Made by a program: the position numbers and the translations under genes | Notes under the pieces: model-generated | Database searches by the model: none | What the model was told of the DNA's origin: nothing | What the model saw: the letters and a program-made list of their open reading frames with translations, nothing else | In this document: in pieces, positions 48,493 through 57,712 of the stretch | Layout of the letters: each line of letters opens with the position of its first letter | How positions within the stretch are numbered: position 1 is the stretch's first letter | Virus record (IMG/VR): IMGVR_UViG_3300020477_000028 | Coordinates: 1 to 57,713 of that record | Direction: 5' to 3' (one strand) | DNA: 57,713 bases | Origin: a virus | Taxonomy: Duplodnaviria > Caudoviricetes

Positions 48493-48747
48493 CTAATCAA
48501 GAGTGTTTAATTCATCAGCACGTTTTTCAGATGGCCATCCACAATTAGGCCCTACACTGATCTTACCATTACTCGCCATATGGTCCATAAATGCGTAAGT
48601 TCTGTGGTTAACTCCTGAACAACATCCTGTATTTTTCAAACATCTTCTTGCATGTAATCTTGCTATTAAATGCCCATTCGCAGAAACCCTTTTTGAAGGA
48701 TAATGAGATGGGTTACAAGCACACATATCTAATTTTGCTAAACTCAT
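48493..48747 (-). CDS. Small Cys/His-rich hypothetical protein
   Basis: 84 aa; overlaps the holin stop (ATGA coupling). Confidence 0.55.
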   Translation of the reverse strand: MSLAKLDMCACNPSHYPSKRVSANGHLIARLHARRCLKNTGCCSGVNHRTYAFMDHMASNGKISVGPNCGWPSEKRADELNTLD

Positions 48748-49139
48748 TTCTTTTTGGTTTTTTCAAGCGATCTTCCTCCAAAATAGGCTCCAATCACTGT
48801 TATTAATACTAATTGTAAAAGATCTGTCCATTTTTCTTCTACTTCAAATGCAATAGTACCAGCATCAATAAAAATTAATAACATAGTACATACTATTAAA
48901 AATATAAGAACTAAAGGTCTTACATTTTTAGAAAGCCAGGAATCAGAGTTCATATCAGCTGTCCATCTATCTGTTATATTTTTTTCCATAGCAGCTTCAT
49001 GGCTTGCAATAAGTTCCTGCATTTTTTGTTTAGCTTCTAGCTTTTCAGCTTTAGATGTATGTAAGTTATCTATAACTCCTCCTACACCCTCAACTAATTG
49101 AGCAGCTCCTCCACTAAATATTTTACTTAATATATTCAT
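48744..49139 (-). CDS. Holin (3TM, GTA-holin-like family)
   Basis: RWTADMNSDSWLSKNVRP, two hydrophobic helices, GAYFGGRSLEK and a basic tail. Confidence 0.8.
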   Translation of the reverse strand: MNILSKIFSGGAAQLVEGVGGVIDNLHTSKAEKLEAKQKMQELIASHEAAMEKNITDRWTADMNSDSWLSKNVRPLVLIFLIVCTMLLIFIDAGTIAFEVEEKWTDLLQLVLITVIGAYFGGRSLEKTKKK

Positions 49140-49145
49140 ATTTTT

Positions 49146-49232
49146 TTATTTACAACATTTTGATTTACACCATTTAAGGCAGACTTTACCAAATGTTATT
49201 GTACAAACTGCTTTACAAATAAATTTTTTCAT
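49146..49232 (-). CDS. Uncalled 28-aa cationic Cys-rich peptide MKKFICKAVCTITFGKVCLKWCKSKCCK
   Basis: Translated by hand: ATG at 49232, TAA at 49146-48; fills the gap between the 49237 ORF and the holin with 4- and 6-nt spacers. Confidence 0.6.
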   Translation of the reverse strand: MKKFICKAVCTITFGKVCLKWCKSKCCK

Positions 49233-49236
49233 ATTT

Positions 49237-49455
49237 TTATTTTTTGTTTGCGAATTTTTCAACTCCAGCTATACCGAAGCATCCTAATACAACCCATACA
49301 AATGAGTTATATACAAATTCATTTATTACTAAATCTTTGCCTACATAACCTGTAAGAAGATCTGCGAGCATTATTAAACACATAATTACAAATGCTACAA
49401 AGCCTATTATAGACTTTTCATTCCAATCGTTACTGTCTTTAAATATATTCATCAT
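49237..49455 (-). CDS. Small two-TM membrane protein (holin-like)
   Basis: Two hydrophobic stretches; C-terminal FGIAGVEKF and basic tail. Confidence 0.65.
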   Translation of the reverse strand: MMNIFKDSNDWNEKSIIGFVAFVIMCLIMLADLLTGYVGKDLVINEFVYNSFVWVVLGCFGIAGVEKFANKK

Positions 49456-51758
49456 TCTAAAATTATTTTATCAATTTTTATTATTTTATCTCTTACTTTT
49501 ATTACAGCTGTATATAACCCTTTACTAAAAGGCGTTATATCAATTCTATTCACATTTTCTTTGGAGAGTATTCTCTCTCCTAGTATAGTGTATAGCTCTA
49601 CGTCTACAAATATACTAAAATTCAAGGTACTTTTTGCTGGATTTGGCCATATAGTTAAATAATTATTAGCTTCTGTTATCGCGGTAGGCCATCCTTGCTG
49701 ACAATAGTTATATAAAATTTGACAACTATTATCCCACGCAGTGTTACAACAATAATTATCTACATCAATTACCCATGCATAACATCCATCATTTAACCAA
49801 TATGGATTACCTGGACCAGTTATACAACCTGCGTCATATAAACAAGAAGTAGAATCATCTACATTAGCTAATGGATCGTAGTTCCACGCATCTTGGTCCA
49901 TACAGCCTTCGACCACATCAATACACGAACCATTGTCAGTATTAGCCAACGAATCATAATTAAGAGCAGTACTATCGGTACAACCATAAATGTAAGGTAT
50001 ACAGCTAAAATCTTCGGTATTAGCGGATGGGTTGTAATTGAGCATAGAAGGATCAGTACAACCATAGATATAAGGAATACAAGTGTTATTGTCAGCATTG
50101 GCTAAAGGATTAAAGTTAAACATAGTAGAGTCCATACAGCCATATACAAAAGGCTCACAACTCCCATCATCTGTGTTACATGTATCACAATAATTATACA
50201 TAGTTGCATCTATACATCCATATATGAGTGGGATACATGTTGAATCGTCTACATTAGCATTTGGATTGTAATTAAAAGCTAATGGATTCATACACCCATA
50301 TATAATTGATATACATGATCCTGTAAGCTGAACATTCGCATTAGGATCATAATTTAAGGCTGTACTATCCATACAACCTACTACTATTAAAGTAGAACAA
50401 GAACCATCATCAAAATCAGCAGTAGAATCATATTCTAGATATAAAGGATTCATACATCCTGCTACATAATAACAAGATCCATCATCTGTATTTGCAGAAT
50501 CAATATAGTTTAAAGCAGTTGAATCTATACATCCAAATACTTTTTCTATACAAGTATTACCACAATTAGTTATTGCTGTATATGGAAATAAAGGCTGTAT
50601 AAAAGGAGGCTGAACGCTTATAAGAACATCACCTTCTGGATTCATTAATGTAAATCCACATTCTATAGTTGTTAAAGATGCTTGAGCAGTAATTAAAAAC
50701 CTTGCTACTATAAGTTCTGGAGCTGTTAAATCTAAATAATAAACATCATCAAATCCTCCTGTATGAGTAAATTGATATATCGAATCTTGAAATGTTATCT
50801 CTAAAGTAGATCCTACCCATCCATTACCCATTAAGTCATGAAGTATAAGAGTATATTGACAACTATCTATAAGATCCATTGAGTTAGCATTTGGATCATA
50901 ATTATACATAGTAGAGTCGGTACATCCAAATATTTTTAATACTTGGCAGCTACTATCATCTACAGTTGCAAATGGGTTAAATTCTAAATATGCAGGATCC
51001 ATACATCCGTATATAGGAAGGCAAGTATCAGATACAAATATATGAGTTGAATCACTTCCAAATGCTGGATCTATACCGTATACTAAAGTATCATTACATT
51101 GTGTTATATAATAAGAACCGTCTTGTCCTTGCCATAATGATCCATTTAATCCATCTCCATATGAATCAAAAATGGTAAAGTTTAAAGGTCCTACAGGAAT
51201 ACATACAGGGACAATAACAGTTCCATAGTCTGGTTGAGCTCCATAATTACCTCCAGAAGCTACTACAATGCCTAATGTATCTGTAATTTCCCAAGATGTT
51301 TCTGATTGATATTGATCTAAATTTATAATAACTGTAGCAGGAACACAAGGTCCAGGAGGAGGATTAGGCATACATTGAGGTACTGTTCTAGTTGAATATA
51401 AACCAGTTGTAAAACTAACAGTTGGATAATTTATAATAGTATCCTCACAAACTGCTACATAATAACTACCATCCATTCCATCACCATATGTATCTCTCAT
51501 TAAGAAAACAATAGTAGATGTACTATCAGGTATATAACATGTATCTGAATATGTTGTATTTGGAGCTGTATAATGCCCCGCAGATACTTCAGCTATAGTA
51601 TCTCCATAAAGAGAATCCTGCATTAGTATCCAATAAGTCTCTGAAGGATATGAATCAGTTGTTAAACTAACAACAGTTTGTTTTTGTCCAAAAGCAAACT
51701 GTATTGATAACAACATAAATATAAAAATTGCTAATATTGTATATAATATATTCTTCAT
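49452..51758 (-). CDS. Secreted repeat protein with signal peptide and T9SS type A-like C-terminal sorting domain
   Basis: N-terminal MKNILYTILAIFIFMLLSIQFAFG|Q; 11 GCxD/N..N(Y/F).P.A..DDGSC-type repeats; C-terminal TIWPNPA..YTILGE..IDI..FSKGLY..KIILE. Confidence 0.8.
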   Translation of the reverse strand: MKNILYTILAIFIFMLLSIQFAFGQKQTVVSLTTDSYPSETYWILMQDSLYGDTIAEVSAGHYTAPNTTYSDTCYIPDSTSTIVFLMRDTYGDGMDGSYYVAVCEDTIINYPTVSFTTGLYSTRTVPQCMPNPPPGPCVPATVIINLDQYQSETSWEITDTLGIVVASGGNYGAQPDYGTVIVPVCIPVGPLNFTIFDSYGDGLNGSLWQGQDGSYYITQCNDTLVYGIDPAFGSDSTHIFVSDTCLPIYGCMDPAYLEFNPFATVDDSSCQVLKIFGCTDSTMYNYDPNANSMDLIDSCQYTLILHDLMGNGWVGSTLEITFQDSIYQFTHTGGFDDVYYLDLTAPELIVARFLITAQASLTTIECGFTLMNPEGDVLISVQPPFIQPLFPYTAITNCGNTCIEKVFGCIDSTALNYIDSANTDDGSCYYVAGCMNPLYLEYDSTADFDDGSCSTLIVVGCMDSTALNYDPNANVQLTGSCISIIYGCMNPLAFNYNPNANVDDSTCIPLIYGCIDATMYNYCDTCNTDDGSCEPFVYGCMDSTMFNFNPLANADNNTCIPYIYGCTDPSMLNYNPSANTEDFSCIPYIYGCTDSTALNYDSLANTDNGSCIDVVEGCMDQDAWNYDPLANVDDSTSCLYDAGCITGPGNPYWLNDGCYAWVIDVDNYCCNTAWDNSCQILYNYCQQGWPTAITEANNYLTIWPNPAKSTLNFSIFVDVELYTILGERILSKENVNRIDITPFSKGLYTAVIKVRDKIIKIDKIILE
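49840..51012 (-). repeat. Array of about 26-aa GC(M/T/I)D..NY.P.A..DDGSC repeats (2 + 9 copies)
   Basis: Counted in the translation; two further copies lie at about 57510-57650 in the last ORF. Confidence 0.85.
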
Positions 51759-52103
51759 TTATTTTTTCTTTTTACCTCCCCAGTATTCGACAGCAAATCC
51801 TTCTTTAACTAGAGTTTCATTAATATTCATATCGTCTATATGAAGCGTGCCTAAAACTCGCCCATATTTTCCAACTTCTTTACTTTTTAATATAAATTCT
51901 CCTCCTTCTAAAAGTTCTTCTAATCTTGCTTTAGAAGCTAATCCTCTAGCTTTTTCTTCAAGATCTCTAGTTCTAGATTCTGGAGTATCTATTCCTGCAA
52001 GTCTTATTCTTTTAGATATAGTTATATCAAAGCCCAAATCTATATGGGCATCTACGGTATCTCCGTCAATTATTCTATCTAATTTTGCACTATAAGTATA
52101 CAT
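51759..52103 (-). CDS. Staphylococcal nuclease-like (thermonuclease) protein
   Basis: IIDGDTV, IRLAGIDTPE, GKYGRVLG and INETLVKEGFA motifs. Confidence 0.9.
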   Translation of the reverse strand: MYTYSAKLDRIIDGDTVDAHIDLGFDITISKRIRLAGIDTPESRTRDLEEKARGLASKARLEELLEGGEFILKSKEVGKYGRVLGTLHIDDMNINETLVKEGFAVEYWGGKKKK

Positions 52104-52105
52104 TA

Positions 52106-52462
52106 TTAAAAATCACTCATTAATAACTCGTCAATAGTACCTTGTACTTCTTTTCTAGTAGCTTTCATGCTAAAAGATATATCTGCTTGAAATCTCTTTA
52201 CTTCTTCTCCATCTTTAAATATAATAATAGTAGGTACTACAACTATTTCATATTTTTTTTGAATTTTTGGATCAGCTGCTATATCTATATATTTTATTTT
52301 ATCTACATCTGTTAATTCTTTTAACCATGTAACTTTATTTGCATCATTCCATTCTGCATTATATTGAGCTACAATTACTTGTGCTGAAGCCATAGAAGAG
52401 CTAAATAATAAAAATAATATTATCAGATACCCTGCAAGTATTTTCCAAACTGGATCTTTCAT
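52106..52462 (-). CDS. Exported thioredoxin-fold protein lacking CxxC
   Basis: Signal peptide ending ASA|Q; QYNAEWN in place of WCxxC; YEIVVVPTIIIFKDGEEVKRF cis-Pro region. Confidence 0.75.
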   Translation of the reverse strand: MKDPVWKILAGYLIILFLLFSSSMASAQVIVAQYNAEWNDANKVTWLKELTDVDKIKYIDIAADPKIQKKYEIVVVPTIIIFKDGEEVKRFQADISFSMKATRKEVQGTIDELLMSDF

Positions 52463-52466
52463 AATT

Positions 52467-52835
52467 TTATACGAAAGTCCCGTATTCTACCATAGTATCA
52501 GCTGCTGATGCCCACACTGTTATATCTACTGCCGCTTTCCAAGGAAAAAATGCCCATTCACCTGCACCTATTACTAAATCTACTTGAGCTACTGTAGCTG
52601 TAAATTTAACATTTAGTGTATTACTTGCGTGTTTATTCCTTATATATACTTTAGTACCTTCAGCATGATCCGCTTGTCCTAATAATAGTACTGCTGCACC
52701 ATCTGTAGTAGCATCCACTTCTTTTAATAGTATTCCTCCCTGTGTTACAGTCAAATCTTTTACTGTAGAACTTGCTAAGTTTGCAGTTGTTAGATCTGAA
52801 GAAGAAAGGGTTACTGTTGTTTTTAAAGTTCCCAT
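52467..52835 (-). CDS. Small beta-rich protein, paralog of 52864-53238
   Basis: SDLTT, VYIRN, GEWAFFPW and EYG shared with its neighbour. Confidence 0.7.
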   Translation of the reverse strand: MGTLKTTVTLSSSDLTTANLASSTVKDLTVTQGGILLKEVDATTDGAAVLLLGQADHAEGTKVYIRNKHASNTLNVKFTATVAQVDLVIGAGEWAFFPWKAAVDITVWASAADTMVEYGTFV

Positions 52836-52863
52836 TTTTTATATTTTTTTAATCGTTAATAAT

Positions 52864-53238
52864 TTATGCTCCAAATATTCCATACTCAATAATAGAGCCT
52901 TGAGTTGTTGCATATGCATTTATATCATCTCCTGCTGCTGACCATGGAAACCATGCCCACTCGCCTGGAGCTAATACCATATTATCTGCACCTCCTATTT
53001 CTAAATACACATTGTCTGTAGTTCCAGATTGACAGTTTTTTACATATACATAAGCACTTCCTGCATAATGAGTTTCTTCTGCAAGTTCTTCTTGTGAGCC
53101 TGTAGCAGTTCCCCAAAGTTTTCTACGATGGAGTCCTCCAGTAACTATAGATGTCAAAGTATTAAGAACAGTCACATCTAATGAATCTGTAGTCAGATCT
53201 GTAGATGTTAGTTTTAATGTTGATTTTACTGTTGCCAT
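52864..53238 (-). CDS. Small beta-rich protein, paralog of 52467-52835
   Basis: TDLTT, VYVKN, GEWAWFPW and EYG. Confidence 0.7.
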   Translation of the reverse strand: MATVKSTLKLTSTDLTTDSLDVTVLNTLTSIVTGGLHRRKLWGTATGSQEELAEETHYAGSAYVYVKNCQSGTTDNVYLEIGGADNMVLAPGEWAWFPWSAAGDDINAYATTQGSIIEYGIFGA

Positions 53239-53264: not shown

Positions 53265-53540
53265 TTATTTTAATTCGTCTATTTTGTCTTCAATACGTCT
53301 TAAGTCTTCTTTGATTTCTTTAACATCATCTTCCGTATTTTCGATAGATTGACGTATATTAACATCTTTCATGTTAAATTCCATCCTAGTTACATCTGGT
53401 GCTGGAAGTTCTTTAGCGTCTTGTATATCAGATTGTAACATGAAATACATACTTATAAGAGTTGCCATTCCTATACCTATACCTATTAAAGTTTTTATGC
53501 TTAATTTAAAGCTAGTATCTTCGTTTAATTCTTTTGCCAT
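53265..53540 (-). CDS. Single-TM protein with C-terminal coiled coil
   Basis: Hydrophobic LIGIGIGMATLISMYFML followed by a heptad-rich tail. Confidence 0.65.
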   Translation of the reverse strand: MAKELNEDTSFKLSIKTLIGIGIGMATLISMYFMLQSDIQDAKELPAPDVTRMEFNMKDVNIRQSIENTEDDVKEIKEDLRRIEDKIDELK

Positions 53541-53541
53541 T

Positions 53542-53751
53542 TTAATCCCAAAATATTAAAGTTCCTATAATTCCTAATATCGCTACCCATACAGACCATA
53601 ATGTCTTTTGAGTACTCTTTCTAAAAGAAGTGTTTTTATTCACTCTCGCTATTGTACCATCATCAGGATCTAGAAGTCTTTTTTTAATAAATCTTACATC
53701 TTCTTTTAAATCCTGTATATCCTCATGTATCTGTTGGTTAGTTATTTTCAT
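53542..53751 (-). CDS. Small coiled-coil protein with C-terminal TM anchor
   Basis: IHEDIQDLKEDV.. then LWSVWVAILGIIGTLIFW. Confidence 0.65.
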   Translation of the reverse strand: MKITNQQIHEDIQDLKEDVRFIKKRLLDPDDGTIARVNKNTSFRKSTQKTLWSVWVAILGIIGTLIFWD

Positions 53752-54800
53752 AATATTATATAATTTATTCCAAATTTAAAATCATACCATTTTCTATTCC
53801 AGTATTTATTATATTTTCCTTCTATAAATGTTCCTAAACTTTTATTTATTTTCCATCCATATATTAAACCTCCTGAATAATCAGTCCATTGTCCGTCATT
53901 AAACTTATGATATGAATATTCATTTCCATCATCATAATGACGAGGTAATACATTTGCCCAACTATGAAACCAAAAGTTTTTAGTATAATGATAAAAATCA
54001 AATCCTATTACTAAAGAATGATTCCACTGTGGAGGTAAAGCATTTCTTTTCTTTTCTACATAATCTGATAATACTGTAGGTATTATTACTTCTTCCCATA
54101 TAGTAGTATTTGTAGCAACTATATTACCATTAGGATCTTTATATTCACTATTAAATACATCAATTTCATATCCTTCTTCTATTGCTAAATTGGTATAATG
54201 TATATCTCCTGTAGATAATACCCATTCTGCTAAAGGATCATATCCATAAGGTTCAGCAATACGTTGTACAGATCCTATATTAAAAGAAAGTTTTTTTCCT
54301 AATTTTTGTCTATATCTTTGTGAAGACTCAAAATATTCTATATCTGCAAATCCATCTTGTAAATATTCAGTTTTTACAATCCAACGATTAGCTACATATC
54401 TTAAAAAATGATGTTGATCTACATAATTTATTCCTTGTTGTCTTTTATAATCAGCTTCAAATAAGAATTCTAATCCTGATACTTTTCCTAAAGTAGCTGC
54501 ATCTGAAAAAGATGTTTCAGTTCCATCATAAAATGTATTAGCTCTATTTTCATATCCAAAACGAGCTATTTTACGTATTCCTACTGTAATAGAATAATCA
54601 AAAGGAGTTTCAATAGTTGAAGTTTCTAATCCATTTGTAACAGAAAATACATCTACATCTGAAATAGAATTTCCTCCATTTACAGCTCCATAAAAAGTAG
54701 AAAATTTAAAATATTTTTTAAATTTATTTTTTTTCGGAGCATCTTGTCCTATAGCAGCAAAACTACCTAATAAAAATAATATGAATAATAATTTTTTCAT
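53748..54800 (-). CDS. Putative outer-membrane beta-barrel protein
   Basis: Signal peptide MKKLLFILFLLGSFAAIG|Q, alternating aromatic/hydrophobic strands, C-terminal YDFKFGINYIIL resembling a beta-signal. Confidence 0.65.
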   Translation of the reverse strand: MKKLLFILFLLGSFAAIGQDAPKKNKFKKYFKFSTFYGAVNGGNSISDVDVFSVTNGLETSTIETPFDYSITVGIRKIARFGYENRANTFYDGTETSFSDAATLGKVSGLEFLFEADYKRQQGINYVDQHHFLRYVANRWIVKTEYLQDGFADIEYFESSQRYRQKLGKKLSFNIGSVQRIAEPYGYDPLAEWVLSTGDIHYTNLAIEEGYEIDVFNSEYKDPNGNIVATNTTIWEEVIIPTVLSDYVEKKRNALPPQWNHSLVIGFDFYHYTKNFWFHSWANVLPRHYDDGNEYSYHKFNDGQWTDYSGGLIYGWKINKSLGTFIEGKYNKYWNRKWYDFKFGINYIIL

Positions 54801-55123: not shown

Positions 55124-57712
55124 TTAACAGGTTTCATCACATTCAGCTGAGGCTGCACAAGCAGAACACAACTTTTGTAGGTTAGCAATCGCTTTATCTA
55201 TCCAAGGTTCTAAGCCACAGTCTATACCTGTAACTTTTAAAACTCTGTATAGTGTATAACATTTTTCATAAGCATCATAAGGAGCTGTACATTTAGGACA
55301 GCACTCAATAGCTAATGTATATCTTTCAAATGCATCTAATAATTTTGCATAAGAATCACATAGAATTAAGAAACATAATTCTACAGTTTCTCCTCCAACT
55401 AAATATAATACAATTTTATATCTACCATCAGGTATTTCAGTATTTGGTTGAAAGAAAGAACTATTTTTTAAAGTTGTATCTAAAGTGATACTTCCAGTTA
55501 ATGGTCCTGGATTATCAGGGTCATAAATTATATCATTTGTAACTCCTGTAGTTTCATTTGTAATAGTTCCATAACTTGTTTCTCCTGAATCACAATCTCC
55601 AACAATTTGTATATCTTCTCCTACAGATATAATTATCTCAGGATTTCCTCCACATCCACAAGTAATTTGAGTAGTAATTATACAATCAGAATATGTATCC
55701 ATATCCTCTCTAAATAATGTAACAATATATTCAGAACATTCTCCTACTGTTTCTATAGTTACATTTGAAGAAGGATCTAAAAGTTGATGTATTCCTGGAG
55801 AAACTGTAACTGCTGTTTGAGTATATGTATCTGCAGGTATAACAGCACCTGTAACTGCATCTTTAATTATAACAGTTAAACAATCTGTACCATTACATGA
55901 TGCTCCTCCCGATAATAAAGAATTTAAAGTGTTACCAAATTGACCTCCTGTAAATACTCCTGCAATACTATTAGTACCTGGGAGTCCTACAGTAGGATCC
56001 ATACTCCATCCATATTGATCTAATCCATCAAATCCTTGAACCACATAAGGATTATTCGCTAATGTTAAAGCATTTAAATTACCATATACATTAGTCCCTT
56101 GTGCAGCTGTTTGTGTTACATTTACTTCAGCACTTATTACAGGATTTACAGGAACAGGTCCGTCTGTAGATACGTTCCATACACCACTATGTATACCTGC
56201 CAATGAGCATAAAATAAATGACATTTTACCATTATGAGGATTTCCTACAGTCGTTGGTACTCCACATCCAGCAGATCCAGTATGTATACCAGGAATTACA
56301 GGGTATAAAAATCCTTTAAAAAAGTCATAAGATGGGTGTTTAGCTACAAATGAATTATAATCTGTTTTCCATTTTTGATGAGGAGCTCCTCCAAAATCAC
56401 CTATAACACCATATGGAGGTTGTTCATAATTACTACCATCTGGGCTTCTATCATGATAAGCACCTCCTCCTTGCGGCCCTTCTGCTTCATCAAAGAAACA
56501 TAAAACAACAGCTTTAGTATCTGATTGTCCTCCTCCTGCTAAACCTCTATCAGAATAAGAAGCTCCTGGCCTTAAATATGGGAGAGCTCCTGTTCCTGTA
56601 ACAATATCGTTAAATGCTGCAGATCCTGCTTTAGGGCCGTACATTTGTTGAGTTACTATAGTATTAGTAGTACCAATAGTACTTCTGTCTAAAACATTAA
56701 CAGTTAATGTTGTTGAATAACCAGAATTACCTCCTAATAAATCATTACTAGCACTATTTACTAAAGAAGTAGTTCCATTTTTAAACTGTTGATCGATAGG
56801 ATATTCTCCACAAGCAAGCCATTTCTCTCCATGAACAGGAATATGATAAACATCTCCTGTATAAGAAGGATCATTTATAACTTTACTTTGATACCAAAGT
56901 TCAACTGCATTTACAATCTCAACAATATCTTCTTTACACGTTGAAGTTACATCGTAGAAACAGTATATATTTGTATCATTAGGAATGGTTTCCATTCCAC
57001 ATGCAAGTAAATTTTTATCTATATTTATAGGACCACAATAAGTAGTTACATCTAAACTTTTTCCTCTTATATCTCCAATGATAGTGTCTGCGGTTGGAGA
57101 TTGAAAATTCCATGAACCTCCTGTTAATTTAGTCATTATCTCTAAAGCATCTGGTTTAGGTGATAATAATATATTTGTACAAGGTCCTGATATATCCGCT
57201 CCACATAAAGTTGCAGAGGTTTCAGATTGAGTTTGAGTAGAATCTCCATCTGTTCCTGTATAATTAAAACAGGAATCACATTGATACTTATTCATCAATC
57301 TTGTGATCATAGGAAATAGAGCTCTTAATTCCTCTATTTTACCACAATCTATTAACATGTAAACTTGAGCAAGTATAGCTTCTAATTCTCTAAAATCATT
57401 TTCTAACTCGGTAAGTTTTTCAGGTTCCCCACATTCTGTATGACATTCTTTTAATATCTCTTTTGCCATTGCTATTAAAACACATTCTATAATAGGGGGA
57501 ATTAATTGACAACTACCATCATCACATGTTGCTAAAGGATCATAATTAAGTGCCAATGGATCTGTACATCCCCATTCACAGTATTCACAACTTCCGTCAT
57601 CTACATTAGCATTAGGGTTATAATTCATAGCTGTAGGATCAGTACATCCTAAAATACATTCTTTACTAACAGTAAATTCCTTTTCAAATGTTACTATTTT
57701 AAATAAATATTG
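55124..57712 (-). CDS. Large Cys-rich putative structural protein with DDGSC repeats and a VWA-like domain, 5'-truncated
   Basis: Frame stays open from 57628 to the window end (QYLFKIVTFEKEFTVSKECILGCTDPTA|MNY...), so the true start lies outside the window. Confidence 0.75.
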   Translation of the reverse strand, partial: QYLFKIVTFEKEFTVSKECILGCTDPTAMNYNPNANVDDGSCEYCEWGCTDPLALNYDPLATCDDGSCQLIPPIIECVLIAMAKEILKECHTECGEPEKLTELENDFRELEAILAQVYMLIDCGKIEELRALFPMITRLMNKYQCDSCFNYTGTDGDSTQTQSETSATLCGADISGPCTNILLSPKPDALEIMTKLTGGSWNFQSPTADTIIGDIRGKSLDVTTYCGPINIDKNLLACGMETIPNDTNIYCFYDVTSTCKEDIVEIVNAVELWYQSKVINDPSYTGDVYHIPVHGEKWLACGEYPIDQQFKNGTTSLVNSASNDLLGGNSGYSTTLTVNVLDRSTIGTTNTIVTQQMYGPKAGSAAFNDIVTGTGALPYLRPGASYSDRGLAGGGQSDTKAVVLCFFDEAEGPQGGGAYHDRSPDGSNYEQPPYGVIGDFGGAPHQKWKTDYNSFVAKHPSYDFFKGFLYPVIPGIHTGSAGCGVPTTVGNPHNGKMSFILCSLAGIHSGVWNVSTDGPVPVNPVISAEVNVTQTAAQGTNVYGNLNALTLANNPYVVQGFDGLDQYGWSMDPTVGLPGTNSIAGVFTGGQFGNTLNSLLSGGASCNGTDCLTVIIKDAVTGAVIPADTYTQTAVTVSPGIHQLLDPSSNVTIETVGECSEYIVTLFREDMDTYSDCIITTQITCGCGGNPEIIISVGEDIQIVGDCDSGETSYGTITNETTGVTNDIIYDPDNPGPLTGSITLDTTLKNSSFFQPNTEIPDGRYKIVLYLVGGETVELCFLILCDSYAKLLDAFERYTLAIECCPKCTAPYDAYEKCYTLYRVLKVTGIDCGLEPWIDKAIANLQKLCSACAASAECDETC

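What the first reader, a model, noticed from the sequence alone, without database searches (positions are those of the whole stretch)
49452..51758. Phage-encoded substrate of the host type IX secretion system
Seen: a Sec-type signal peptide ending before Gln, two D(S/Q)YxSETxW..D(T/S)YGDG domains, 11 DDGSC-type repeats, and a terminal segment of about 70 aa with WPNPA..YxxxG..KGLY..KII. Known: this matches the Bacteroidota T9SS type A CTD pattern, which routes proteins through SprA/PorV to the surface or medium. Inference: a phage gene embedded in the late operon, overlapping or abutting its neighbours, uses the host T9SS to display or release an acidic, possibly Ca-binding adhesin-like protein. 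Possible roles are superinfection exclusion, receptor masking, aggregation or blocking the translocon.
Basis: partly seen in the sequence, partly recalled or inferred. Interest (0 to 1): 0.85.

Follow-up and report, generated by a model that had tools for sequence, protein, structure and literature searches.

The report
Marine phage protein exported through host T9SS
An uncultured marine phage of Flavobacteriales encodes a cysteine-rich, acidic binding-type protein carrying both an export signal and the tag that Bacteroidota use for type IX secretion, so the phage very probably makes its host put this protein on or outside the cell.

Summary
ORF 49452-51758 (-) encodes 768 aa: a Sec-type signal peptide cut before Gln25, three beta-sandwich domains, 11 Cys-bridged ~26-aa repeats, a Cys-rich helical module, and a C-terminal domain that passes the curated cut-offs of PF18962 and TIGR04183 (T9SS type A CTD).

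The window is a 62%-complete IMG/VR phage contig whose kin are Flavobacterium FpV4-like and Crassvirales phages. The gene is not a chimera. Relatives of it occur in 31 related viral contigs. It is the only CTD gene in four near-complete 110-120 kb relatives, and independent metagenome contigs bridge both of its junctions.

It lies in a conserved cassette of exported proteins: an outer-membrane beta-barrel, a thioredoxin-fold protein without CxxC, and a membrane-anchored coiled coil. The holin and structural genes are nearby.

Phage-encoded T9SS cargo has been noted in two papers, so this is a new member of a known kind. Its function (surface coating or receptor masking) is inferred.

By-product: in 65 of the 120 closest homologues the CTD is replaced by a ~40-aa tail. 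This tail also ends signal-peptide proteins in 123 of 301 Flavobacteriales genomes sampled, which makes it a candidate unrecognised sorting signal.

The parts
49452..51758 (-). Whole gene: 768-aa phage-encoded T9SS type A cargo protein
   Evidence: ORF listing. Relatives in 31 viral contigs.
51687..51758 (-). Sec-type signal peptide, residues 1-24, cut as AFG|Q25
   Evidence: Hydropathy profile. Q25 is invariant in 60 of 60 homologues. Modelled as a helix, residues 2-22. SignalP was not available.
51369..51686 (-). Beta-sandwich domain 1 (residues 25-130), carrying DSYPSETYW and DTYGDG
   Evidence: AF2 strands with pLDDT 85-93. Motifs located.
51021..51353 (-). Beta-sandwich domain 2 (residues 136-246), carrying DQYQSETSW and DSYGDG. 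Homologous to an accessory domain of T9SS-secreted peptidases of Flavobacteriales.
   Evidence: Structure model. Cellular homologues found. Of 10 cellular proteins scanned, 8 carry PF18962 and 6 carry a peptidase domain above its cut-off.
50859..51008 (-). Cys repeats 1-2 (residues 251-300)
50544..50858 (-). Beta-sandwich domain 3 (residues 301-405), a degenerate copy carrying HDLMGNGW
   Evidence: AF2 strands 299-396 with pLDDT 78-89.
49842..50534 (-). Cys repeats 3-11 (residues 409-639), period 25-27 aa, 20 Cys and 33 Asp+Glu
   Evidence: Poorly modelled, with pLDDT below 50. Repeat number is 5-22 in orthologues.
49689..49838 (-). Cys-rich helical module (residues 641-690; GPGNPYWLND..YCC..WD..C..Y..C)
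   Evidence: Helices at 658-687. Many invariant Cys, Trp and Asp columns.
49458..49652 (-). T9SS type A C-terminal sorting domain (residues 703-767)
   Evidence: PF18962 30.1 bits against cut-off 27. TIGR04183 29.6 bits against cut-off 23. DNA-level hit at exactly these coordinates. AF2 beta-sandwich with pLDDT around 90. Profile match to the solved CTD chain 8glk_D.
52106..52462 (-). Cassette neighbour: 118-aa thioredoxin-fold protein with a signal peptide and no CxxC (AEWNDAN in its place)
   Evidence: PF00085 23.5 bits, equal to the cut-off. TIGR01068 E 4e-7, below its cut-off. Found in 28 of 31 related loci, mostly just upstream of the cargo gene. W-N-x-x-N replaces CxxC in most of them.
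53748..54800 (-). Cassette neighbour: 350-aa signal-peptide protein modelled as an outer-membrane beta-barrel
   Evidence: AF2 pLDDT 74.8, pTM 0.66, about 12 long strands. Foldseek hits to NanC, NalP, PorB and FadL at probability 1.0 and TMq 0.23-0.39. No Pfam, NCBIfam or PHROG family. Present in 24 of 31 loci.
53265..53540 (-). Cassette neighbour: 91-aa protein with an N-terminal membrane anchor and a coiled-coil tail
   Evidence: Read from the sequence. Present in 27 of 31 loci.
49237..49455 (-). 72-aa membrane protein overlapping the cargo gene's stop codon by 4 nt
   Evidence: Seen in 3 of 31 loci by tblastn.
48744..49139 (-). Holin
   Evidence: phrog_3427, E 4.5e-31. Lies downstream of the cargo gene in 9 of 31 loci.
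51759..52103 (-). Small nuclease gene wedged between the thioredoxin-fold gene and the cargo gene. Probably not part of the cassette.
   Evidence: phrog_452, E 1.8e-39. Where a match to it was found in related loci it lies elsewhere (L005, L006, L008).
55124..57712 (-). Large ORF cut by the contig end that carries two copies of the same Cys repeat. No signal peptide is seen in the part present.
   Evidence: Translation. Weak hit to phrog_37948, 'virion structural protein', E 3e-4.

Best explanation
The gene encodes a cargo protein of the host's type IX secretion system, made by a crAss-like/FpV4-like marine phage of Flavobacteriales. It is probably expressed with the structural and lysis genes.

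Proposed path:
1. The signal peptide takes the protein through Sec and is cut before Gln25. This follows the +1 Gln habit of Bacteroidota signal peptides, which I recall from the literature.
2. In the periplasm the three beta-sandwich domains and the disulfide-rich repeats fold. The adjacent CxxC-less thioredoxin-fold protein may help.
3. The 65-aa type A CTD is then recognised by the host's PorV/SprA translocon, and the protein is exported and either released or fixed to the cell surface.

The passenger has no catalytic domain. It is built from modules that serve in cellular proteins as accessory domains of T9SS-secreted peptidases, plus a repeat that also occurs in large signal-peptide-less phage proteins that are probably virion proteins. 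So the most likely activity is binding: an acidic, perhaps Ca-dependent, coat on the infected cell or its debris. I think this coat most probably masks the phage's own attachment ligand, which would exclude superinfection or protect progeny from being lost on debris.

Shown: gene, domains, CTD family membership, phage context, conservation.
Inferred: export route, timing, binding, biological role.
For: CTD and signal peptide:
- The CTD passes both curated cut-offs and sits at the extreme C-terminus.
- It is modelled as a confident beta-sandwich.
- The family profile matches the solved 75-aa CTD chain 8glk_D at E 0.0013, from the PorV-translocon study.
- The signal peptide has Gln25 invariant in 60 of 60 homologues.
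- 40 Cys fit an exported protein.

Phage context:
- The window is an IMG/VR record carrying phage replication, holin and virion PHROGs.
- Its kin are F. psychrophilum FpV4-like phages and Crassvirales.
- Relatives of the gene occur in 31 viral contigs, mostly in the same neighbourhood.
- Four relatives judged 94-100% complete each have exactly one CTD hit.
- Independent metagenome contigs bridge both junctions.

Host lineage:
- TIGR04183 is found in 300 of 301 genomes of the order that holds the cellular homologues.
- Cellular homologues of domain 2 sit in proteins with a signal peptide. Of 10 scanned, 8 carry PF18962 and 6 carry a peptidase domain above cut-off, with one more trypsin-like hit below cut-off.

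Other:
- The same Cys repeat occurs in big phage ORFs without a signal peptide.
- The neighbours are exported proteins and the holin.
Against: - The HMM scores are only modestly above the cut-offs (30.1 against 27; 29.6 against 23).
- There is no experimental evidence of secretion, and the host has not been identified.
- 65 of the 120 closest homologues lack a recognisable type A CTD, so the family's function does not strictly need the canonical tag.
- Virion proteins also carry Ig-like end domains.
- The receptor-masking role rests only on a shared repeat, and the repeat-bearing ORFs are not shown to be virion proteins.
- The signal peptide was judged without SignalP.
Confidence: 0.72

Rival explanations
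1. The protein is T9SS cargo, but it benefits the infected host's lifestyle rather than phage exclusion. It would be an adhesin that keeps the infected cell attached to particles, algal surfaces or neighbouring cells, favouring nutrient supply or spread to neighbours.
For: The passenger consists of binding-type modules shared with secreted Flavobacteriales proteins. It is acidic and repeat-rich. Repeat number varies from 5 to 22 among orthologues, as in adhesins. Bellas et al. proposed similar roles for phage-encoded T9SS cargo (passages read).
Against: The gene sits with lysis and structural genes rather than early genes. No ligand is known. The repeat it shares with other phage proteins points to a phage-related ligand.
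Confidence: 0.2
2. The protein belongs to an envelope-disruption (lysis) cassette. Together with the phage outer-membrane barrel and the membrane-anchored coiled-coil proteins it would weaken or open the outer membrane at lysis, a job done by spanins in other phages.
For: The holin lies 300 nt downstream. The cassette combines an inner-membrane-anchored coiled coil, an outer-membrane barrel and periplasmic proteins. No spanin-like PHROG was found in the neighbours scanned.
Against: The barrel changes position relative to the cargo gene among loci, and the holin is nearby in only 9 of 31. An 82-kDa exported repeat protein with a secretion tag is unlike any known lysis protein (recalled). No endolysin was identified next to it.
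Confidence: 0.1
3. The protein is a virion (fibre or decoration) protein. Its C-terminal beta-sandwich would merely resemble a CTD, and the hydrophobic N-terminus would not be a cleaved signal peptide.
For: Ig-like end domains are common on phage structural proteins (cited in de Jonge et al., passages read). The gene lies in the structural-gene strand. The Cys repeat occurs in other large phage ORFs.
Against: All 27 complete orthologues in the viral loci start with a signal peptide ending ...(A/G/S)Q. 40 Cys suit an oxidising compartment. The neighbours also carry signal peptides. The CTD passes family cut-offs. There is no PHROG structural hit.
Confidence: 0.06
4. The CTD is a non-functional leftover from capture of a host gene, and the protein acts in the periplasm.
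For: About half of the family has no canonical CTD. The HMM scores are modest.
Against: The CTD keeps its PNP, G-L-Y and K-rich end motifs. It is conserved across the 54 CTD-bearing homologues. The alternative tail is itself the C-terminal element of cellular extracellular-type proteins and is distantly similar to type A CTDs. That argues for swapping between working tags, not decay.
Confidence: 0.08

Closest known systems
Cellular T9SS type A cargo of Bacteroidota (for example F. johnsoniae NucA and RemA, whose CTDs were solved bound to PorV/SprA; Lauber et al. 2024, PMC10994853, passages read)
   Same: An N-terminal Sec signal peptide, passenger domains, and a 65-75 aa TIGR04183/PF18962 beta-sandwich at the extreme C-terminus. 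The family profile aligns to the solved CTD chain 8glk_D.
   Different: It is encoded by a phage. The passenger has no enzyme domain and no Pfam or PHROG family. It sits in a phage cassette with its own outer-membrane barrel and a CxxC-less thioredoxin-fold protein.
'Cryophage' T9SS-CTD genes from glacier cryoconite metagenomes (Bellas et al. 2020, PMC7468147, passages read)
   Same: Phage-encoded proteins with type A sorting domains, variable between phage variants, proposed to hijack the host T9SS.
   Different: Those are enzymes or a PA14 protein (endoglucanase, GH39) described as flexible island genes. Here the protein is a non-enzymatic Cys-repeat protein that is single-copy and positionally conserved in a marine crAss-like/FpV4-like clade.
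T9SS sorting-domain ORFs in gut crAss-like 'cluster 2' contigs (de Jonge et al. 2019, PMC6949934, passages read)
   Same: Phages related to Crassvirales that carry T9SS sorting-domain proteins near the head and structural genes.
   Different: Those are gut phages with BACON-repeat passengers, and no cassette or alternative tail was described in the passages read. tblastn of this protein against GenBank phages finds nothing.
UniProt auto-annotated viral proteins in BFVD: A0A7S9XDT1 (Virus NIOZ-UU157), A0A218MM41 ('Secretion system C-terminal sorting domain-containing protein', uncultured virus) and A0A218ML01 ('Putative peptidase', uncultured virus)
   Same: Foldseek and sequence relatives at 54%, 26% and 31% identity. 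NIOZ-UU157 also holds a 'Crassvirus muzzle protein' domain protein.
   Different: These are database entries only. The two papers that mention NIOZ-UU157 were seen only as search listings and do not appear to be about this gene.
Phage-encoded envelope proteins that block the phage's own receptor (for example T5 Llp; recalled, not tested)
   Same: It works like them under my preferred reading: a phage protein is exported to the envelope and hides the attachment site.
   Different: The export route (T9SS), size and architecture all differ. No receptor is known here.

Membership tests
T9SS type A cargo (TIGR04183 / PF18962) | C-terminal domain scores above the curated family cut-off | tested here: met
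   PF18962 30.1 bits against 27. TIGR04183 29.6 bits against 23. Almost the whole model is covered.
T9SS type A cargo (TIGR04183 / PF18962) | The domain lies at the extreme C-terminus and keeps the conserved PNP, GxY and K-rich end motifs | tested here: met
   Residues 703-767 of 768. WPNPA at 704, KGLY at 746, and the end reads KIIKIDKIILE. The motif scheme comes from the review PMC10202324 (passages read).
T9SS type A cargo (TIGR04183 / PF18962) | Beta-sandwich (Ig-like) fold of the CTD | tested here: met
   AF2 strands at 711-767 with pLDDT around 90. Sequence-profile match to the solved CTD 8glk_D at E 0.0013. The domain alone was not fold-searched.
T9SS type A cargo (TIGR04183 / PF18962) | N-terminal Sec signal peptide | tested here: met
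   Hydropathy profile and the AFG|Q site. Gln25 invariant in 60 of 60. All 27 complete orthologues have one. Heuristic only, without SignalP.
T9SS type A cargo (TIGR04183 / PF18962) | The producing cell has a T9SS | tested here: inconclusive
   The host is unidentified. Kin phages infect Flavobacterium or belong to Crassvirales. TIGR04183 occurs in 300 of 301 genomes of the order that holds the cellular homologues.
T9SS type A cargo (TIGR04183 / PF18962) | Export depends on T9SS components and the CTD is cleaved | not testable with these tools
   Needs expression in wild type against sprA, porV and gldNO mutants.
Phage gene (not host DNA or an assembly chimera) | Same gene in the same neighbourhood in independent related phage genomes, with junctions supported by independent data | tested here: met
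   Relatives in 31 viral contigs, with cassette synteny. One CTD hit in each of 4 relatives judged 94-100% complete. Contigs from runs X3, X4 and X6 bridge 49452 and/or 51758.
PorP/SprF or PorV family (considered for the neighbouring 350-aa barrel) | Match to a family model | tested here: not met
   No Pfam or NCBIfam family at E<=1 for the window protein. No barrel family among 10 distant relatives either. Only generic barrel fold matches.
Thioredoxin (considered for the neighbouring 118-aa protein) | Thioredoxin fold with a CxxC active site | tested here: not met
   PF00085 scores exactly at its cut-off of 23.5 bits. The CxxC position reads W-N-D-A-N, and W-N-x-x-N in most of the 28 relatives.

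The most novel reading that the evidence does not exclude
The interchangeable C-termini of this phage gene family point to a fourth, unrecognised sorting signal of Flavobacteriales: a 'mini-CTD' of about 40 aa, with consensus K.LI.ITDLLGR(P/E)....N.L.FYIYdDGs.EKK.. and its core motif about 31 residues from the stop codon.

- It replaces the type A CTD in 65 of the 120 closest homologues.
- It has swapped with the type A CTD at least 11 times on the passenger tree.
- It ends proteins with signal peptides and extracellular-type passengers in 123 of 301 genomes of one order, against 0 of 201 genomes in an unrelated class.
- It is distantly similar to the middle and end of type A CTDs but lacks the PNP and GxY regions.

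If it is a T9SS signal, the phage family is a natural domain-swap experiment, and the phage cassette (its own outer-membrane barrel plus a CxxC-less thioredoxin-fold protein) may be a self-supplied helper set for export.
Probability: 0.3. Interest if true: 0.8.

Novelty: new member of a known kind. Interest (0 to 1): 0.55.

Why it matters
T9SS is the main route by which Bacteroidota dress their surface, glide and feed. Flavobacteriales are key degraders of algal-bloom carbon, and phages are a major cause of their death.

A conserved, single-copy phage gene that sends a large binding protein through the host's T9SS would mean that infection rewrites the cell surface. That could affect superinfection, aggregation and particle attachment in the sea.

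The family is abundant in marine metagenomes. 4531 proteins scored E<=0.001 among the 8000 candidates examined, although some of these may match only through the repeats. It therefore offers many natural variants for study.

The alternative short tail, if it is a secretion tag, would extend the catalogue of T9SS signals (types A, B and C per the 2023 review). It would also improve cargo prediction in about 40% of the Flavobacteriales genomes sampled.

Tried and rejected
- Complex prediction on the barrel (residues 19-350) with the CTD (residues 690-768) returned 'no answer', score 0.04 against a mark of 0.32. This is no evidence either way.
- The look-up of sequencing runs listed no RNA holder, so nothing can be said about expression.
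- Foldseek of the whole 768-aa model against PDB gave only low-TM multi-domain matches such as ferlin C2 arrays and galectins. These are uninformative for the passenger.
- The Protein Atlas search on residues 136-246 gave only unnamed clusters.
- Megablast and tblastn of the region or the protein against GenBank phages found no match. The barrel gave no match, and the thioredoxin-fold protein matched only weakly to Streptomyces phage thioredoxins.
- No PHROG family was found for the cargo or for three other repeat-bearing large ORFs.
- hhalign of the short tail against the family's own CTD alignment aligned only 15 columns, probability 4%. A broader cellular CTD alignment gave probability 58.7%, E 9.4e-5, against 0.2% for a reversed control. 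I treat this as suggestive only.
- No tRNA was found in the window.
- One genome search failed on a parameter and was redone correctly.
- Supplementary files of papers were not consulted. The supplements of Bellas 2020 and de Jonge 2019 may list more phage CTD genes.
- I considered the barrel as a PorV or PorP/SprF homologue and rejected it, because no family model matches.
Full report
**1. What is there.**

The ORF is exactly as reported: 49452..51758 on the minus strand, ATG start, 768 aa. It overlaps the next small ORF by 4 nt and abuts the preceding nuclease gene.

- Signal peptide: M-K plus about 20 hydrophobic residues, ending A-F-G before Gln25. Gln25 is invariant in 60 of 60 aligned homologues. 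SignalP was not available, so this is a heuristic reading.
- The two DxYxSETxW/DxYGDG motif pairs, the 11 Cys repeats and the WPNPA, YTILG, KGLY and KII landmarks are at the stated places.
- The repeat pattern occurs 11 times, against a mean of 0.02 and a maximum of 2 in 2000 shuffles.
- The protein has 40 Cys and 90 acidic against 17 basic residues. The mature pI is 4.05.

**2. The sorting domain.**

- Pfam PF18962 scores 30.1 bits (cut-off 27) over residues 703-766.
- NCBIfam TIGR04183 scores 29.6 bits (cut-off 23) over residues 703-767. Each match covers almost the whole model.
- A DNA-level search of the record finds the same single place.
- An AlphaFold2 model built on 60 homologues (mean pLDDT 65.4) gives three confident beta-sandwich domains (25-125, 139-243, 299-396), an unmodelled repeat array, a short Cys-rich helical module (657-687), and a C-terminal beta-sandwich with pLDDT around 90.
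- A profile of the family matches the 75-aa chain 8glk_D at E 0.0013. PDB 8GLK belongs to the cryo-EM study of F. johnsoniae PorV/SprA translocon complexes with substrate CTDs (PMC10994853, passages read).

**3. Phage and host lineage.**

- The window is a linear IMG/VR virus record, 62% complete by CheckV.
- It carries Sak4-like, primase, exonuclease, ribonucleotide reductase, holin and virion-protein PHROGs. It also has giant minus-strand ORFs of up to 4208 aa.
- A structural-region protein finds 73 GenBank phage records. 29 are Flavobacterium phages (FpV4-like, about 29% identity). Most of the rest are 'uncultured' records or phages named as Bacteroides, IAS, Kolpuevirus and Bohxovirus. Kolpuevirus is a genus of Crassvirales.
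- BFVD holds a 54%-identical protein from 'Virus NIOZ-UU157', which also has a 'Crassvirus muzzle protein' domain protein.

**4. Not a chimera; a conserved gene.**

- The search for related loci returned 31 viral contigs with relatives at 41-68% identity, on contigs of up to 120 kb.
- Four relatives judged 94-100% complete (110-120 kb) each have exactly one TIGR04183 hit, which is the orthologue. FpV4 has none.
- The stretch 48500-53000 is held by 11 marine metagenome runs from 6 studies, of which two may be the source.
- Contigs from runs X3, X4 and X6 cross the gene's junctions with few or no differences.
- The protein search scored 4531 proteins at E<=0.001 among 8000 candidates. The top 120 come from metagenome collections (Tara, JGI, ENA and others).

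**5. The neighbourhood.**

tblastn and phmmer of window ORFs against the 31 loci show a recurrent cassette.

- A 118-aa thioredoxin-fold protein with a signal peptide occurs in 28 of 31 loci, mostly just upstream of the cargo gene. The three misses have little upstream sequence.
- A 91-aa membrane-anchored coiled-coil protein occurs in 27 of 31.
- A 350-aa signal-peptide protein occurs in 24 of 31, upstream or immediately downstream.

The thioredoxin-fold protein reaches PF00085 exactly at its cut-off, but it has W-N-D-A-N where CxxC should be. Most relatives have the same replacement.

The 350-aa protein has no family. It is modelled as a beta-barrel of about 12 strands (pLDDT 74.8, pTM 0.66). 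Its fold matches outer-membrane barrels such as NanC, NalP, PorB and FadL at probability 1.0 and TMq 0.23-0.39. A profile of it finds 407 representative clusters at E<=0.001. Ten distant members show no barrel family.

Neither the barrel nor the cargo is found in GenBank phages.

The holin lies downstream in the window and in 9 of 31 loci. Virion-protein genes follow in the same order in L003, L022 and L024.

**6. What the passenger suggests.**

- The protein has no Pfam or PHROG family apart from the CTD.
- Cellular relatives of domain 2 are common in MAGs titled Flavobacteriales, Crocinitomicaceae, Cryomorphaceae, Fluviicola and Wandonia.
- Full-length relatives in genome contigs are confined to four contigs (L033-L036). 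One is a 120-kb contig in a 'Rickettsiales' MAG. These look like mis-binned phage.
- Of 10 cellular proteins scanned, 8 carry PF18962. 6 carry a peptidase domain above its cut-off (S8, M43 or trypsin-like), and one more has a trypsin-like hit below cut-off. The domain is therefore an accessory module of T9SS-secreted peptidases.
- The Cys repeat also occurs in the large ORF at 55124-57712 and in 1201-1588-aa phage ORFs in L003, L022 and L024 whose N-termini lack a signal peptide. Only a weak 'virion structural protein' PHROG hit supports a virion role for these.
- Repeat number ranges from 5 to 22 among orthologues.

**7. Mechanism.**

I commit to this chain: Sec export, then periplasmic folding with disulfides, then CTD-dependent passage through the host's T9SS, then a binding coat on the cell or in the medium (confidence 0.72 for the export route).

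For the biological role, my first choice is masking of the phage's own attachment ligand, which would give superinfection exclusion or protect progeny. This rests only on the shared repeat, so I put it at about 0.3. The rivals are:

- a host-lifestyle adhesin (0.2);
- a part in outer-membrane disruption at lysis (0.1);
- a vestigial tag on a periplasmic protein (0.08);
- a virion protein (0.06).

**8. An unexpected by-product.**

Among the 120 closest homologues, 54 end in a type A CTD, 65 end in a ~40-aa tail (K.LI.ITDLLGRP....N.LLFYIYDDGsVEKK..), and 1 is truncated.

- Eight short-tail proteins have no NCBIfam hit even at E<=10.
- On a quick maximum-likelihood tree of the passenger part (60 rows, tail columns excluded), the tail type changes 13 times. 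Well-supported branches force at least 11 changes. The shuffled mean is 18.6, and 2 of 500 shuffles were as low. Recombination and the quick method are caveats.
- A profile of 13 phage tails finds matches at E<=0.001 in 123 of 301 genomes of the order of a Crocinitomicaceae MAG. It finds 4 of 301 in a phylum-wide sample and 0 of 201 in an unrelated class.
- TIGR04183 is present in 300 of 301 genomes of the same order sample.
- In 11 of the 12 best loci the motif lies 30-32 residues from the stop codon of an ORF. Nine of those ORFs open with a signal peptide and two open differently.
- Ten cellular tail-bearing proteins were scanned. Passengers include three extracellular PHA-depolymerase-like esterases, a 'choice-of-anchor J' domain and an LRR protein. 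No model covers the tail.
- Against a broad cellular CTD alignment, the tail aligns over 44 columns at probability 58.7% and E 9.4e-5, against 0.2% for a reversed control. It skips the PNP and GxY regions.
- The 2023 review lists only CTD types A, B and C (PMC10202324, passages read).

I regard the tail as a candidate shortened CTD or new sorting signal. Its export route is untested.

**9. Novelty.**

Searches of the held library found two papers that mention phage-encoded T9SS CTD proteins.

- Bellas et al. 2020 (PMC7468147) calls three such genes in 'Cryophage' a unique occurrence.
- de Jonge et al. 2019 (PMC6949934) notes sorting-domain ORFs in gut crAss-like contigs.

I read passages of both. 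UniProt already auto-names one related viral protein as a sorting-domain protein. I found no functional study. Supplements were closed and may list more cases.

The window gene is therefore a new member of a known kind. The cassette and the tail swapping are new observations.

**10. Verdict.**

The role remains open. Interest is moderate, at 0.55. It would be higher if the short tail proves to be a T9SS signal.

Noticed in passing
Relatives: L003-L005, L009-L012, L016, L017, L019, L020, L029, L030, L034 (C-termini of the orthologous gene); cellular loci L118-L137: A ~40-aa C-terminal tail (..ITDLLGRP....N.LLFYIYDDGsVEKK..) replaces the type A CTD in 65 of the 120 closest homologues. The same tail ends proteins, most opening with a signal peptide, in 123 of 301 genomes of one Flavobacteriales-level order, against 0 of 201 in an unrelated class. 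No NCBIfam model covers it. It is a candidate new sorting signal.
   Followed up: yes
window 52106-52462 (-): An exported thioredoxin-fold protein in which W-N-D-A-N replaces the CxxC active site. It is conserved next to the Cys-rich cargo gene in 28 of 31 related loci. It may be a redox-inactive chaperone.
   Followed up: partly
window 53748-54800 (-): A phage-encoded 350-aa outer-membrane beta-barrel of about 12 strands with a helical insert at 183-257 and no known family. Some relatives have a lipoprotein-like ..SC..KKCCGQ N-terminus instead of a plain signal peptide.
   Followed up: partly
window 51687-51758, 52376-52462, 54744-54800 (-): All three exported cassette proteins have a signal peptide whose predicted cut is directly before Gln (AFG|Q, ASA|Q, AIG|Q). 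This fits the +1 Gln habit of Bacteroidota signal peptides (recalled) and is therefore a host-lineage mark carried in phage genes.
   Followed up: partly
window 51759-52103 (-): A small nuclease gene (phrog_452) sits between the thioredoxin-fold gene and the cargo gene in this window. Where a match to it was found in related loci it lies elsewhere (L005, L006, L008), so it looks like a mobile insertion.
   Followed up: no
window 55124-57712 (-); L003:499-5109, L022:1158-4763, L024:428-5194: The same GC.D..NY..AN.DDGSC repeat occurs in large phage ORFs. The three in the loci start without a signal peptide, and the window ORF is cut at its 5' end. They may be virion proteins. Cys-bridged repeats in cytoplasm-assembled proteins would be odd.
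   Followed up: partly
window 11370-43889 (-): A run of giant ORFs (1353, 4208, 1028, 2016 and 2209 aa), as in crAss-like phages. Not examined.
   Followed up: no
window 52467-52835 and 52864-53238 (-): Two adjacent 122- and 124-aa ORFs whose matches overlap at the same places in related loci, so they are probably paralogues. No family is known. Relatives occur in many related loci.
   Followed up: no
L033, L034, L035, L036, L042: Phage-like contigs carrying this gene are binned into MAGs titled Parvibaculum, Rickettsiales, Sphingobacteriales and Winogradskyella. A MAG titled 'Luminiphilus sp.' falls inside the order sample centred on a Crocinitomicaceae MAG. This suggests mis-binning or mislabelling in public MAGs.
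   Followed up: partly
window 49842-50534 (-): Metagenome contigs show in-frame skips inside the repeat array (174, 270, 321 and 399 nt), and orthologues have 5-22 repeats. The array expands and contracts among strains. The short anchors of these joints make single events uncertain.
   Followed up: partly
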